Below, piece by piece: positions 2,853-16,240 of a stretch of DNA of 64,000 nt. The notes below the pieces were generated by a model. The model had not been told where the DNA came from. It did not search any database and saw only the letters and a list, made by a program, of their open reading frames with translations. Source of the stretch: Eledone cirrhosa (lineage: Eukaryota); the NCBI GenBank assembly GCA_964016885.1, contig OZ024751.1:34410001-34474000 (forward strand), in the 5' to 3' direction. The number at the start of each line of letters is the position of its first letter. Position 1 is the first letter of the stretch. The position numbers were made by a program, and so were the translations under genes.

Positions 2853-3638
2853 AAGCTGCCAAAATATAAAATATATCTTAAATCATTGTCACAGTTATAA
2901 TTATATTGACGTCATTTAGCATCAATTTACAGTTCATTTCACTTGACGTTTTATGATGAGGAGGAAGGGAGGTGAGAGTGTGGGAAAGAAGGGGTGGTGT
3001 CGGATAGAGGTGGAGGAAGAGGAGTTAGAGGTAAGGCAATAGAAGACAGCAGAGGATGGAAGAGAGAGAGAGCTAAAGGTAAAAAAGGGAGGAACGGGAA
3101 TAGGTATATGTGTGTGTGTGTACATATATATATATATATATTTATTTATTTATCTGTATGTAGGTATGTATATATGTAAATTCGTATGCATGTACGTATA
3201 TATATATGTGCATACATATATATATAACTATATATATATATATATATATATATATATATATATATATATATATATATATATATATATATATATATATATA
3301 TATATATATATATATATATATATATATGTGTGTGTGTGTGTGTGTGTGTGTGTGTGTAGGAGATGAGTTTTATTGTAGTACAATAAAGCAATGCAGATAT
3401 CGGATAAGAAGCACTCTACAGTTTGTAGGACTGGAGTATACATAATATATAAGAACAAAAGATGGAACTCTTTTAACCATCTTTTGTTCTTATATATTAT
3501 ATATATATATATATATATATATATATATATATATATATATATATATATATATATATATATATATATATATATATATATATATATATAAAATATTAAACAA
3601 ATAATGAACAAACAATTCCTTATATTAAACAAAAAAAG

Positions 3639-3793
3639 TTCACTATTTAACGATCGTTTCTAGGGTATATATGTGTTATAATTGGTATGCATATTTAACA
3701 GATCTATGTACAAAATTATACAAAATTATACAAATTATCAAGATTAAATATACATACCTAACTCATATATACGCCGTCTTCAGAAATAATGAA
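3639..3793 (-). ncRNA. Type I hammerhead ribozyme near the PLE 3' end (copy 1)
   Basis: Minus strand: TTCATTATTT-CTGAAGA-[116-nt stem II]-GAA-ACGATCGT-T^AAATAGTGAA; 10-bp stem I, palindromic stem III, GUU triplet. Confidence 0.85.
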
Positions 3794-6700
3794 GTATATT
3801 TATTGATAATAATAACAATTCAAAATATCAGTTCAAAATTGACCAATGAAAACACAAAGGGTTAAAAGCAGTTTGGTGTGTGTATATACATGTAAAAACC
3901 TTACACATATTTTACAATAATGTGTGTATAATTTGTATGTGCATACTAAAAAGATGGATGCAAACACAAAATTTCAAGGTTAATATCTCTGTAAGCTTAA
4001 TGCGCTGATAAGATACGCAATGATACTTATGGAGTCAAGCATATAAATATATTTTTTTCATACTCACACATATCAGTATAATCACACACACATGTGCGTA
4101 TATGCATAAATATACACATAACCACGAACATACAAACACACACACTCCCCCACTCACATTTATATATGTGGATATAAAATCATAAGCAAATAGAAATTAA
4201 GTCACTCACATAAAAACACTGGCACACACATTTCAAGATCAAGATACAGAAATTAGGTGGGAGGGGGGGGGGGGAGGGGTCAGTATTAGATTGTCAGACC
4301 AGACTGCCTAATATAAATGTATCTATAAATTAAGAAAAATAAAAAAATAAAAACAATAAAATATAATAAATATAATATAATGTACATACACATACAGATA
4401 TACAAACACATACATACATGTACGCGCACATAGAGATATTTACACATACATACATACACACATACCTATACAGTCATACACACACATACATTTACACGAA
4501 CATATACATACACATATAAAAAGATATAAATACACACACACTCACGCGCAACACATACACACATACACATATATATATACATATATATATATATATACAC
4601 ATATATACACACACACATAGACTCATATATATATATATACATATACATACATATATATAAACATATATATCCACACACTCATACCACCATAAATACACAT
4701 ACAAACACCCACATGTATATATATATATATATATACATATCCACATACACACACGTACACATATATATATATATACATATATACACATACATATATATAT
4801 ATACACACACATAAAAAACAGACATGCACATATATATATATATATATATATATTTCATTACTCTTATATATACACATAGTATATATACATACACAACCTC
4901 ACTTATACACATACACATAAGTTATATTACAATAATAATAAAGAATAATATATATATATATATATATATACACACATACATATATACACATATATATATA
5001 TATATACATACATACATACACATACATACATACACATAAATATATACATACATAAATACACACATACGAATAAAGACATATATTCACACATAGACACCTA
5101 TATACACATATATATATATATATATATATATATATATATATATATATATACATATATATATATATATATATATATATACACATACACACACACACACACA
5201 CACAGAGACACACATACACACTCACATATATATATATATATATGTGTATGTGAGTGTGCGCAAATACACATATATACACACACACATACAAACACACACA
5301 AACACATACATATGCATACGTGCACACACACACACATATATCACATAGATACGAAGATAAACATATAAATAGAGAGACATACAAATATATACAGAACCCA
5401 TATACACATACATACAAACACGCATATACATATACATACATATATACACATATATATATTCCTATATACAAGCATACACATACATACACATATATACATA
5501 TACATACACATATACATACCACACATTCACATACACATACATATATAATACATATATATACATGTATATACATACATATGTATGTACAATCATATATACA
5601 CACTCAATCTTACATTCATATTTACATGCTCATATATGTATTTTTATATTTAGAAATAAATACCAAAACCTATATAGACACCCACCTACACATATATTCA
5701 TACATATACGCTTACAAAAACAGATGATAATAGTATGGGGGAAAGGGGGGGTTTGGAGAAGGGGATCAAAGTAAATATATGTTTCAAGAAACATATAATA
5801 TTTTCCGTATCTTAATTCAATGTATGTTCTTACATATTTTCAGTGCTAGGAAATACGAAATCTATGCATCTCAAAACAAAAAATTAAACCATTAATCATA
5901 TGTTAACTAAACCAAAGATAGTCAACATATTGATTTCCAAGGTGTAAATTAGTTAGGTTTATAATATTTGAAGCAGAATTATGAAGTCAAACAGTAGTAG
6001 ATTATTAATTACATTATAACTAAATTAAAGTTAATAACGTTATGGTATCAATATTAGGAGATGAATTTAGTAATAGGGAAAAGAAACCCAAATAAAAATA
6101 AAATAAAGTATTACATCGGTAGTAGCATATAAATTATATGTTAACTAAATTAAAAATTATATATTTATTTCAATAGTATACGTTAATTAGTATATGTTAA
6201 TTAGGTATATAATACATAAAGCAGATATTGTATTTCATCAATAGCATAATATAATTATATGCAAATAAAAATCAAAATTAATACGCACACATATACATAT
6301 ACATACACATACACATATATATACATATACACACATATATATATATATATATATATATATATATATATATATATACATATACATACACATATATACATAT
6401 ATACTCACATAAATATACATACAGATACACATACAACACACACATATATACATATACATATAGATATACATATCTTTTTCAAAAAATTGCACAGAATATA
6501 TTAACTAGGTATATATCCAAAACACATCCCATTCTATGATTACATGACATTCTGCAATTCGTCTGTACAAGGATACTAATTTCAAGCAAATTAAAATTAA
6601 AGTTTTAGGTTGATTAAAACTAAAACCAAATAATAAATATATTTCCAAAATGTATATTAATTAGGTCTATAATACTAAAAATTCTTTCTCCGTCATTGGA

Positions 6701-13001: not shown

Positions 13002-16000
13002 GAAAAAATCAATAGTTATAAAAATAAAAATATAAAATATGATTTGACCTGGAGTGTGCTCAAAAGAGCCACCCCTTATCAAAATAATAGAAAGGAATGT
13101 AGATTATGTTCCCAAGAACTATTTGAAATAATGAAGTCTAGGGATATCTTATTAAATAAAAGACAGGAATTAATTATATCGTGTAATCATAAACTAAAAA
13201 AAACATTTAAATATTATAAACCTAATTAATAACATTATTCTAGAATTTAATTTAATTTAAATGTTAGTTAACCTATAAATTTAATATATGTATATATGTG
13301 TATGTATATGTATATATATATATATATATATATATATATATATATATATATGTGTGTATATGTATATATATGTGTATGTGTATGTATATGTATATGTGTG
13401 CGTATTAATTTTGATTTTTATTTGCATATAATTATATTATGCTATTGATGAAATACAATATCTGCTTTATGTATTATATACCTAATTAACATATACTAAT
13501 TAACGTATACTATTGAAATAAATATATAATTTTTAATTTAGTTAACATATAATTTATATGCTACTACCGATGTAATACTTTATTTTATTTTTATTTGGGT
13601 TTCTTTTCCCTATTACTAAATTCATCTCCTAATATTGATACCATAACGTTATTAACTTTAATTTAGTTATAATGTAATTAATAATCTACTACTGTTTGAC
13701 TTCATAATTCTGCTTCAAATATTATAAACCTAACTAATTTACACCTTGGAAATCAATATGTTGACTATCTTTGGTTTAGTTAACATATGATTAATGGTTT
13801 AATTTTTTGTTTTGAGATGCATAGATTTCGTATTTCCTAGCACTGAAAATATGTAAGAACATACATTGAATTAAGATACGGAAAATATTATATGTTTCTT
13901 GAAACATATATTTACTTTGATCCCCTTCTCCAAACCCCCCCTTTCCCCCATACTATTATCATCTGTTTTTGTAAGCGTATATGTATGAATATATGTGTAG
14001 GTGGGTGTCTATATAGGTTTTGGTATTTATTTCTAAATATAAAAATACATATATGAGCATGTAAATATGAATGTAAGATTGAGTGTGTATATATGATTGT
14101 ACATACATATGTATGTATATATATGTATATATATGTATTATATATGTATGTGTATGTGAATGTGTGGTATGTATATGTGTATGTATATGTATATATGTGT
14201 ATGTATGTGTATGCTTGTATATAGGAATATATATATGTGTATATATGTATGTATATGTATATGCGTGTTTGTATGTATGTGTATATGGGTTCTGTATATA
14301 TTTGTATGTCTCTCTATTTATATGTTTATCTTCGTATCTATGTGATATATGTGTGTGTGTGTGCACGTATGCATATGTATGTGTTTGTGTGTGTTTGTAT
14401 GTGTGTGTGTATATATATGTGTATTTGCGCACACTCACATACACATATATATATATATATATGTGAGTGTGTATGTGTGTCTCTGTGTGTGTGTGTGTGT
14501 GTGTATGTGTATATATATATATATATATATATATATGTATATATATATATATAGATATATATATATATATATATATATATGTGTATATAGGTGTCTATGT
14601 GTGAATATATGTCTTTATTCGTATGTGTGTATTTATGTATGTATATATTTATGTGTATGTATGTATGTGTATGTATGTATGTATATATATATATATATGT
14701 GTATATATGTATGTGTGTATATATATATATATATATATATTATTCTTTATTATTATTGTAATATAACTTATGTGTATATGTGTATAAGTGAGGTTGTGTA
14801 TGTATATATACTATGTGTATATATAAGAGTAATGAAATATATATATATATATATATATATGTGCATGTCTGTTTTTTATGTGTGTGTATATATATATATG
14901 TATGTGTATATATGTATATATATATATATGTGTACGTGTGTGTATGTGGATATGTATATATATATATATATATACATGTGGGTGTTTGTATGTGTATTTA
15001 TGGTGGTATGAGTGTGTGGATATATATGTTTATATATATGTATGTATATGTATATATATATATATGAGTCTATGTGTGTGTGTATATATGTGTATATATA
15101 TATATATATATGTATATATATATGTGTATGTGTGTATGTGTTGCGCGTGAGTGTGTGTGTATTTATATCTTTTTATATGTGTATGTATATGTTCGTGTAA
15201 ATGTATGTGTGTGTATGACTGTATAGGTATGTGTGTATGTATGTATGTGTAAATATCTCTATGTGCGCGTACATGTATGTATGTGTTTGTATATCTGTAT
15301 GTGTATGTACATTATATTATATTTATTATATTTTATTGTTTTTATTTTTTTATTTTTCTTAATTTATAGATACATTTATATTAGGCAGTCTGGTCTGACA
15401 ATCTAATACTGACCCCTCCCCCCCCTCCCACCTAATTTCTGTATCTTGATCTTGAAATGTGTGTGCCAGTGTTTTTATGTGAGTGACTTAATTTCTATTT
15501 GCTTATGATTTTATATCCACATATATAAATGTGAGTGGGGGAGTGTGTGTGTTTGTATGTTCGTGGTTATGTGTATATTTATGCATATACGCACATGTGT
15601 GTGTGATTATACTGATATGTGTGAGTATGAAAAAAATATATTTATATGCTTGACTCCATAAGTATCATTGCGTATCTTATCAGCGCATTAAGCTTACAGA
15701 GATATTAACCTTGAAATTTTGTGTTTGCATCCATCTTTTTAGTATGCACATACAAATTATACACACATTATTGTAAAATATGTGTAAGGTTTTTACATGT
15801 ATATACACACACCAAACTGCTTTTAACCCTTTGTGTTTTCATTGGTCAATTTTGAACTGATATTTTGAATTGTTATTATTATCAATAAATATACTTCATT
15901 ATTTCTGAAGACGGCGTATATATGAGTTAGGTATGTATATTTAATCTTGATAATTTGTATAATTTTGTATAATTTTGTACATAGATCTGTTAAATATGCA

Positions 16001-16240
16001 TACCAATTATAACACATATATACCCTAGAAACGATCGTTAAATAGTGAACTTTTTTTGTTTAATATAAGGAATTGTTTGTTCATTATTTGTTTAATATTT
16101 TATCTTGACTCTGTATACCGTTTATCTTTCACCGAGAGTGGATTTTCATTACATCTCTTCTTTCCATGATATCCGGAATACATTGAGTTCTTCATACGGA
16201 TTGGACACTACCGTAAACTCTTGGTAGATTTATCTACATA
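13001..16240 (+). repeat. Inverted, 5'-truncated PLE copy with a ~490-bp internal deletion
   Basis: Starts inside the endonuclease coding region (ORF 13044-13229 repeats the protein C-terminus), jumps at 13285/13286, ends in (TA)n at 16240. Confidence 0.93.
15895..16049 (+). ncRNA. Type I hammerhead ribozyme (copy 3, inverted arm)
   Basis: Stem I 15895-15904/16040-16049; CTGAAGA 15905-15911; GAAA 16028-16031; predicted cleavage after 16039. Confidence 0.85.

What the first reader, a model, noticed from the sequence alone, without database searches (positions are those of the whole stretch)
3585..16240. Divergent (5'-to-5') PLE insertion with both 3' ends in (TA)n: twin-priming and template-switch footprint
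Seen: the minus-strand arm runs 13001 to 3585 and the plus-strand arm 13001 to 16240. Both 3' ends stop at TA dinucleotides merging into (TA)n, ~64 and ~200 nt past the predicted HHR cut. The inversion junction shows CTAACA vs CTAGCA microhomology; a second jump at 13285 shares only AT. Inference: both target strands primed reverse transcription at different template points downstream of the HHR site, which needs an uncleaved, multimeric or circular template.
Basis: partly seen in the sequence, partly recalled or inferred. Interest (0 to 1): 0.7.

Follow-up and report, generated by a model that had tools for sequence, protein, structure and literature searches.

The report
Back-to-back Hydra-clade Penelope retroelement insertion
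A young Penelope-like jumping gene with an unbroken reading frame sits in a TA repeat as two back-to-back copies, an arrangement already published for this class, and one copy stops at the very base where related copies stop, so both cut DNA strands likely primed copying of an uncut RNA.

Summary
The anatomy is real. A Hydra-clade Penelope-like element (813-aa RT plus C-terminal GIY-YIG ORF, 6,091-bp monomer) lies as a partial tandem on the minus strand (13001 to 3585), joined 5'-to-5' to a truncated inverted copy (13002 to 16240) that lacks about 488 nt. Both 3' ends run into (TA)n, 64 and 201 nt past a predicted type I hammerhead cut. Partial tandem, inverted 5' copy, one-sided tail and (TA)n target are the published PLE pattern. 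Ends beyond the ribozyme are the rule in the clade (24 of 25 published consensus), and in vitro a Poseidon PLE extends both strands, starts RT internally and uses uncleaved RNA. New here: reads from relatives show the +201 end is the family's standard terminus (656 loose-end reads into (TA)n in one run). That favours priming from both target strands over the published self-priming idea. Junction microhomologies are not above chance (p 0.25, 0.06, 0.30), so 'template-switch footprint' is unproven; the 488-nt gap may be a later deletion. A circular template is not required. No listed run looks like the source, so neither junction is read-verified. New member of a known kind; modest interest.

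The parts
3491..3587 (.). (TA)49 target tract at the left end
   Evidence: overlaps the element end by 3 nt
3585..6912 (-). Copy A: 3' pseudo-LTR (long, microsatellite-rich 3' region plus hammerhead), ending 64 nt past the predicted cut
3640..3793 (-). Predicted type I hammerhead, copy in A (core at 3783, cut after 3649)
6945..9386 (-). Unbroken ORF, 813 aa from the first ATG: PLE reverse transcriptase (YRDD) plus C-terminal GIY-YIG-type endonuclease with Hydra-clade motifs
9539..9675 (-). 137-nt 'tail': template between the two 3' end points (+65 to +201), present at the right end only
9676..13001 (-). Copy B: 5'-truncated upstream copy forming the 5' pseudo-LTR; starts 33 nt downstream of the stop-codon position
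9731..9884 (-). Predicted hammerhead, copy in B (core at 9874, cut after 9740); the minus arm runs through it uninterrupted
12996..13001 (.). 5'-to-5' inversion junction; exact microhomology CA, 5 of 6 with a mismatch
13002..13285 (+). Start of the inverted arm: last 62 codons of the ORF, stop codon and about 56 nt of 3' region (unit 7172 to 6889); its last 24 nt mirror 12978-13001
13284..13285 (.). Second junction: about 488 nt of the unit are missing; AT shared
13284..16240 (+). Copy C: inverted copy of 12491-9539, ending at the family's standard 3' terminus
15895..16049 (+). Predicted hammerhead, copy in C: 10-bp stem I, CUGAAGA core (15905), 116-nt stem II region, GAAA, palindromic stem III, cut after 16039
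16238..16265 (.). (TA)14 target tract at the right end

Best explanation
This is one very recent insertion of a Hydra-clade Penelope-like retrotransposon into a (TA)n tract, in the partial-tandem-plus-inverted-copy form, and it was likely made by reverse transcription primed from both nicked target strands on an RNA that the hammerheads had likely not cut. Inferred steps: a read-through transcript of a donor partial tandem (ORF end, pLTR, ORF, pLTR) is bound by the element's protein, probably as a dimer; the endonuclease cuts both strands in (TA)n; one 3' end starts cDNA at +64 in the downstream pLTR and copies 9.4 kb through the ORF and the upstream hammerhead; the other starts at the family's standard site (+201), more likely in the upstream pLTR, and copies about 3.7 kb of template; the two cDNAs stop about 260 nt apart in template terms and are joined end to end with 2 nt of overlap. 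The 488-nt gap is either an RT skip or a later deletion next to the centre of the inverted repeat; the data do not separate these.
For: Shown: anatomy and near identity of the three copies; three non-repetitive A/B stretches tested were identical (3 of 3). Shown: in run X16 (raw reads of a relative) 656 reads leave the element at exactly 9539 into (TA)n; a contig of run X4 begins at 9539; contig depth in run X1 rises from 4,752 (9309-9431) to 343,874 (9555-9677), and the value in the bin between fits an edge near 9542. So the inverted arm ends where ordinary copies end, as expected if it is a cDNA start. The 260-nt centre belongs to the short arm, so a simple snap-back of the long first strand does not give it. 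C shares the B state at 5 of 5 sites where A differs. Both arms are truncated about 260 nt apart in a 6,091-nt unit (chance about 9%). Published: a Poseidon PLE protein cuts and extends both strands, starts RT internally at two sites that bound the tail, is predicted to be a dimer, and needs no hammerhead cleavage (PMC11167929). PLE hammerheads cleave weakly in vitro (PMC4209133). In 77 Hydra-clade loci from metagenomes, 2 show the same offset 5'-to-5' junction.
Against: Microhomologies are at chance level. The long arm overruns the second priming site by 3.46 kb, whereas duplications in L1 twin priming have a median of 22 bp (10.1101/2024.08.27.596794), so strand displacement or a second RNA is needed. 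The +64 end is not among the 24 loose ends listed for the four runs (650 more not shown), so it is not shown to be a regular start. All 7 differences among A, B and C lie in simple-repeat tracts and 5 of 7 on one copy has p about 0.14; polishing or gene conversion could give B = C. 2 of the 4 inverted junctions in the survey are short perfect palindromes, which fit snap-back. No target-site duplication can be read in (TA)n and no empty site was available. The in vitro work is on another PLE clade.
Confidence: 0.58

Rival explanations
1. Snap-back or self-priming: one long first strand (or an antisense RNA) folds back at its 3' end and copies itself into a hairpin; the endonuclease resolves the second arm at the tail; one or two deletions near the palindrome centre (about 260 and 488 nt) followed later.
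For: Self-priming on an antisense template is the published hypothesis for head-to-head PLE repeats (PMC3846280), and the tail was ascribed to endonuclease resolution (PMC8557442). It predicts C = B, as seen. Short palindromes sit at the 5' ends of 2 of 77 Hydra loci. Central deletions in long palindromes are common (recalled, not from a call).
Against: No palindrome at this junction: a 260-nt centre in the orientation of the short arm. It needs an extra deletion on the long arm and a DNA cut at the same base at which ordinary copies end.
Confidence: 0.2
2. Assembly or library artefact: chimeric reads or a repeat-driven mis-join produced the inversion or joined the flanks of two loci.
For: No read evidence for the 13001 or 13285 junction: the 6912/7178 joint is not among the joints listed for four runs of relatives. 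Such structures are known to trouble assemblies.
Against: The junction has only 2 nt of exact homology, so a repeat collapse cannot create it; the inverted arm does not mirror on into the ORF but stops at the biological terminus and enters (TA)n and new sequence. The runs laid are not the source (share 0.63 or less), so absence there is expected.
Confidence: 0.08
3. Two separate insertions into the same (TA)n tract in opposite orientation, the second deleting the target up to the 5' end of the first.
For: The family is abundant and ends in (TA)n; the clade prefers (TA)n.
Against: No TA remnant at the junction; B and C are 99.87% identical, whereas only 850 of 3,178 contigs laid from run X1 are 99% or more alike to this copy; both 5' ends fall about 260 nt apart.
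Confidence: 0.07
4. Dual priming on a circular monomer RNA made by hammerhead cleavage and ligation, copied more than once round.
For: Proposed for PLEs in PMC4209133; it also gives ends beyond the cut site and more-than-unit length (9.4 kb from a 6.09-kb unit).
Against: One circle predicts A = B; A differs from B and C at 5 sites (weak, p about 0.14). In Anolis no RNA reads ended at the cut site and ribozyme mutants inserted normally. Stem I is predicted unpaired once 50 nt or more of tail are present, although shuffled tails often do the same.
Confidence: 0.07

Closest known systems
Hydra clade of C-terminal EN+ Penelope-like elements (Craig et al. 2021, PMC8557442)
   Same: RWR for RWK, DKT, CxCx5C linker, GIY-YIG-type EN without CCHH, CxxC before the conserved E and CxH after the N, type I hammerhead near the 3' end, (TA)n target, 3' end downstream of the cut. 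Penelope-13_HM is listed with a 5'-truncated inverted copy at its 5' end.
   Different: Monomer 6.1 kb against generally under 3 kb, owing to a 3.2-kb microsatellite-rich 3' region; 116-nt stem II region against 10-36 nt in 66 of 69 motif hits in related loci; best protein relatives in the collection are 30-48% identical, so a family not matched there.
Typical PLE insertion: partial tandem, inverted 5'-truncated copy, tail at one end (PMC8557442 Fig. 2; PMC3846280)
   Same: Same arrangement and polarity (head-to-head is called the most frequent); tail on one end only.
   Different: pLTR 3.3 kb rather than about 200 bp; tail 137 nt rather than 30-40; no palindrome at the inversion junction; an extra 488-nt gap.
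PAc (Poseidon) in vitro reaction (Frangieh et al. 2024, PMC11167929)
   Same: Both strands extended, two internal RT start sites bounding the tail, unprocessed RNA as template, AT-rich target.
   Different: Other clade; PAc starts lie inside the ORF, here both ends lie 153 and 290 nt upstream of the ATG position; inverted products were not analysed in the parts read.
L1 twin priming (described in 10.1101/2024.08.27.596794; original model Ostertag and Kazazian 2001, seen only as a reference entry)
   Same: 5'-to-5' inversion with both cDNA starts facing the flanks; longer arm about 2.9 times the shorter; variants with template switching exist.
   Different: L1's second primer anneals at spurious internal sites and overlaps are short (median 22 bp); here the second start is the family's fixed terminus and the overlap is 3.46 kb; no poly(A), no readable TSD.

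Membership tests
Hydra-clade PLE | Single ORF with PLE RT and C-terminal GIY-YIG EN | tested here: met
   Pfam copy used gave 0 families at E up to 0.1, so this rests on motifs and on likeness, by eye, to the Hydra proteins printed
Hydra-clade PLE | RWK motif in place of GxKF/Y; DKG changed to DKT | tested here: met
   RWR at residues 37-39 and DKT at 115-117 (definition)
Hydra-clade PLE | CxCx5C linker; no CCHH; CxxC and CxH around conserved E and N | tested here: met
   C673-C675-C681; C771-C774 before E777; N790 then C799-x-H801
Hydra-clade PLE | Hammerhead motif in the pLTR | tested here: met
   Motif and fold (z -5.08). Relatives support the fold: 21 reads of X16 skip 87-89 nt of the distal stem II and keep its base; most relatives carry 9734 C>T, turning a U-G pair of stem I into U-A. 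No Rfam hit; cleavage untested.
Hydra-clade PLE | Insertion into (TA)n | tested here: met
Hydra-clade PLE | Placement in the Hydra clade on an RT tree with reference PLEs | not tested
   No reference PLE sequences were held as files; no tree built
Naiad/Chlamys PLE | N-terminal GIY-YIG EN, no canonical hammerhead | tested here: not met
   EN is C-terminal and a hammerhead motif is present
Twin-primed insertion (L1 type) | 5'-to-5' inversion with both 3' ends at the flanks | tested here: met
Twin-primed insertion (L1 type) | Microhomology at the inversion junction above chance | tested here: inconclusive
   2 nt exact, p 0.25; 5 of 6, p 0.06
Twin-primed insertion (L1 type) | Target-site duplication and empty allele showing one event | not testable with these tools
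   (TA)n hides a TSD; no genome held and no source run listed
Twin-primed insertion (L1 type) | Short deletion or duplication at the inversion point | tested here: not met
   3.46-kb overlap against a median of 22 bp; works like twin priming but is not the L1 pattern

The most novel reading that the evidence does not exclude
Head-to-head PLE insertions are not self-primed hairpins but the programmed product of a protein dimer that primes both target strands at two fixed internal sites (+64 and +201 past an uncut hammerhead) on a read-through RNA, with one RT displacing kilobases of the other's cDNA. This very abundant, active Hydra family, with a sharp standard terminus, would be a ready system for settling how PLE inversions and tails arise.
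Probability: 0.45. Interest if true: 0.5.

Novelty: new member of a known kind. Interest (0 to 1): 0.3.

Why it matters
How PLEs make their tandem and inverted structures is stated as open in PMC8557442, and the one explicit hypothesis read here is self-priming (PMC3846280). A young insertion whose inverted arm ends at the family's standard terminus is a clean genomic pointer to priming from both strands, matching the two-strand extension seen in vitro. Searches pairing Penelope with twin priming listed 3 papers, none on PLE mechanism by title, and 0 papers; a third search from 2023 on listed 14 papers, of which only PMC11167929 is on PLE mechanism by title. The library lacks most subscription papers, so this does not show the idea is unpublished. 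One locus cannot settle the mechanism, and the structure itself is textbook.

Tried and rejected
Rfam: no hammerhead in the rows shown for the window (150 of 332) or for 15350-16240 (10 of 10). Pfam: 0 families. The repeat finder was swamped by microsatellites. No genome is held, so no survey of other copies in the source. No RNA holder listed. Ribozyme off-switch idea: the tail holds a second exact copy of the 5' strand of stem I (16080-16089; 584 of 100,000 shuffles), and predicted stem I pairing falls from 0.91 (RNA ending +21) to under 0.01 (+51 and beyond). The control undercuts it: 69 of 100 shuffled tails also push stem I below 0.1 and 14 of 100 reach the native value; in 53 distinct hammerheads from related loci (of 69 hits; long-spacer, edge and duplicate hits dropped) native tails were lower than shuffled in 20 and higher in 24, mean 0.25 against 0.15. 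Rejected as a general switch; left as a curiosity of this family. Junction microhomology as evidence: rejected. Flank-to-window BLAST showed no second copy of the flanks that could serve as an empty site. Naiad membership rejected. Earlier scan notes by place and by sequence: nothing. An X16 joint at 9675/9801 (72 reads, one start, 24 letters on the short side) falls beside the +64 end but is too weak to use.
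Full report
Observation. The region 3585-16240 is one composite repeat between (TA)49 (3491-3587) and (TA)14 (16238-16265). Self-BLAST gives: copy A 3585-6912 and copy B 9676-13001 as direct repeats (99.64%); copy C 13284-16240 as the reverse complement of 12491-9539 (99.87%); and 12996-13288 as the reverse complement of 7178-6886. Between A and B lies an unbroken minus-strand ORF (6945-9386, 813 aa from the first ATG). Read in the element's sense, the minus arm is truncated copy, ORF, 3' region (9,417 nt), and the plus arm is the last 62 codons, the stop, a gap of about 488 nt and the 3' region (3,239 nt). 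The two arms meet at their 5' ends and both 3' ends face the flanks.

What the element is. [quoted passage not shown] The Pfam copy gave no family; 118 relatives at E up to 1e-30 among 7,999 candidates are 30-48% identical. The alignment of the query with 11 of those 118 shows RWR, DKT, a CxCx5C linker, no CCHH, CxxC before the conserved E and CxH after the N. These are the defining marks of the Hydra clade of Penelope-like elements, nearly all of which insert into (TA)n (PMC8557442, section 11 read in full; passages; supplement part 2 and search hits). No tree was built. The monomer is 6,091 bp, twice the usual size, because of a 3.2-kb microsatellite-rich 3' region.

The hammerhead. A motif scan of both strands of the window found one type I hammerhead per copy and no other at its threshold: 10-bp stem I, CUGAAGA, a 116-nt stem II region, GAAA, a palindromic stem III and a GUU cut triplet, with the cut after 16039, 9740 and 3649. 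The region folds at z = -5.08. Rfam does not call it. Variation in relatives fits the fold: 18 and 3 reads of run X16 skip 87 and 89 nt that remove the distal stem II and leave its base, and most relatives carry 9734 C>T, which turns a U-G pair of stem I into U-A. Cleavage is untested. The two 3' ends lie 64 and 201 nt past the cut, so the right end carries a 137-nt extension that the left end lacks.

Is this arrangement unusual? No. PMC8557442 states that PLE insertions are partial tandems, often with an inverted 5'-truncated copy at the 5' end and a tail at one end only, and lists a Hydra family, Penelope-13_HM, with such an inverted copy. PMC3846280 (parts 1-4 of 5 read) calls head-to-head the most frequent inverted arrangement and proposes self-priming on an antisense template. 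From the lengths and hammerhead positions in the supplement, 24 of 25 Hydra consensus with a listed motif end 30-355 nt past the cut, median 79; the other has its motif at the 5' end. In 77 Hydra-clade loci from metagenomes, 52 hold a hammerhead-like hit (69 hits); 13 of the 66 hits with a short stem II are followed by (TA)6 or more within 400 nt, at +5 to +286 (some belong to neighbouring elements); 40 of 77 loci show direct repeats and 4 of 77 inverted ones. Of these four, L017 and L059 are offset 5'-to-5' junctions like this one, and L061 and L068 are short palindromes. Its supplements were not read.

New evidence on the ends. No listed run looks like the source: the best holds 0.63 of 372 sampled words, and 14 of 18 listed rows hold any part. 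Four runs were laid on 6480-10150 at 88% likeness. In X16 (raw reduced-representation reads), 656 reads leave the element at exactly 9539 into (TA)n; how many loci they stand for is unknown, as such libraries stack reads. A contig of X4 begins at 9539. In X1 summed contig depth goes 4,752, 40,259, 343,874, 407,543 across 9309-9800; the second value fits an edge near 9542. The tool warns that depth is no copy number, but the step is about 70-fold. Position 9539 (16240 in the right arm) is therefore the family's standard 3' terminus. The +64 end is not among the 24 loose ends listed (650 not shown). The 6912/7178 joint is not among the 6 joints listed, as expected for other individuals; one other opposite-strand joint (8543/10002) is in an X1 contig.

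Evidence that does not hold. The junction microhomologies are at chance level: exact overlap of 2 nt or more in 25% (first junction) and 30% (second) of random joins, and a 5-of-6 window in 6%. The 3-nt overlaps of the ends with (TA)n occur at about 8-12% of tail positions. C matches B at all 5 sites where A differs, B and C have one private indel each, but all 7 differences lie in simple-repeat tracts and the skew has p about 0.14. A possible ribozyme off-switch in the tail failed its shuffle control and did not generalise.

Mechanism. Most likely (0.58) one event with priming from both target strands on uncut read-through RNA. The case rests on three points: the inverted arm ends at the standard terminus; the 260-nt centre belongs to the short arm and is not a palindrome; and both-strand extension is shown in vitro for another PLE. 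It works like L1 twin priming but differs: the overlap is 3.46 kb against a median of 22 bp in L1 (10.1101/2024.08.27.596794, passages), so displacement synthesis or two RNAs are needed. Snap-back with later central deletions (0.20) remains open and is favoured by the two palindromic junctions in the survey. Artefact (0.08), two insertions (0.07) and a circular monomer template (0.07; proposed in PMC4209133, passages) are less likely. The 488-nt gap cannot be assigned to RT rather than to later deletion. PMC12350158 (passages) and bioRxiv 10.64898/2026.07.22.740005 (part 1 of 5) were seen and add only background.

Verdict. The modest added value is that the outer end of the inverted arm coincides with the family's fixed terminus, which points to dual priming and can be tested on other copies. 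Interest 0.3.

Noticed in passing
window 44475-44962 (+): Old, frame-broken fragment of another Hydra-type PLE reverse transcriptase (two profile hits, E 7e-8 and 4e-8).
   Followed up: partly
window 16080-16089 (+), also 9690-9699 and 3599-3608 (-): Exact second copy of the 5' strand of hammerhead stem I, 41-50 nt past the cut, predicted to pair with the 3' strand instead; kept in a variant tail of relatives, but shuffled tails often disrupt stem I too.
   Followed up: yes
window 9539-9930 in run X1: Summed contig depth over this roughly 390-nt hammerhead-bearing end is about 4 to 80 times that over the ORF and drops about tenfold near 9925, which hints at a very abundant short non-autonomous or truncated form in the relative.
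   Followed up: no
window 10047-10150 against 6972-7217 in run X1: Depth just upstream of the pLTR core is lower than over the ORF end, and reads of X16 leave the element at 9928, 9979 and 9986: relatives seem to carry different 3' spacers between ORF and hammerhead.
   Followed up: no
window 6480-10150: Three differently labelled organisms in two studies hold 0.37-0.63 of the sampled words, so near-identical copies span several species labels.
   Followed up: partly
window 6720-7002: Diverged internal repeats (68-72% identity) around the stop codon, close to both 5' truncation points and to one end of the 488-nt gap.
   Followed up: no
L061 511-556; L068 56-160: Short near-perfect palindromes at the truncated 5' ends of Hydra-clade copies, as expected from cDNA snap-back.
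   Followed up: partly
window 27848-28728: Tandem array of a 107-bp unit, 8.3 copies, 98% matches.
   Followed up: no
window residues about 475-560 of the ORF: Low-complexity Asn/Thr/Lys-rich insert between RT thumb and linker, absent from 6 of the 11 aligned relatives; recalls the N-rich inserts of rotifer Penelope elements.
   Followed up: no
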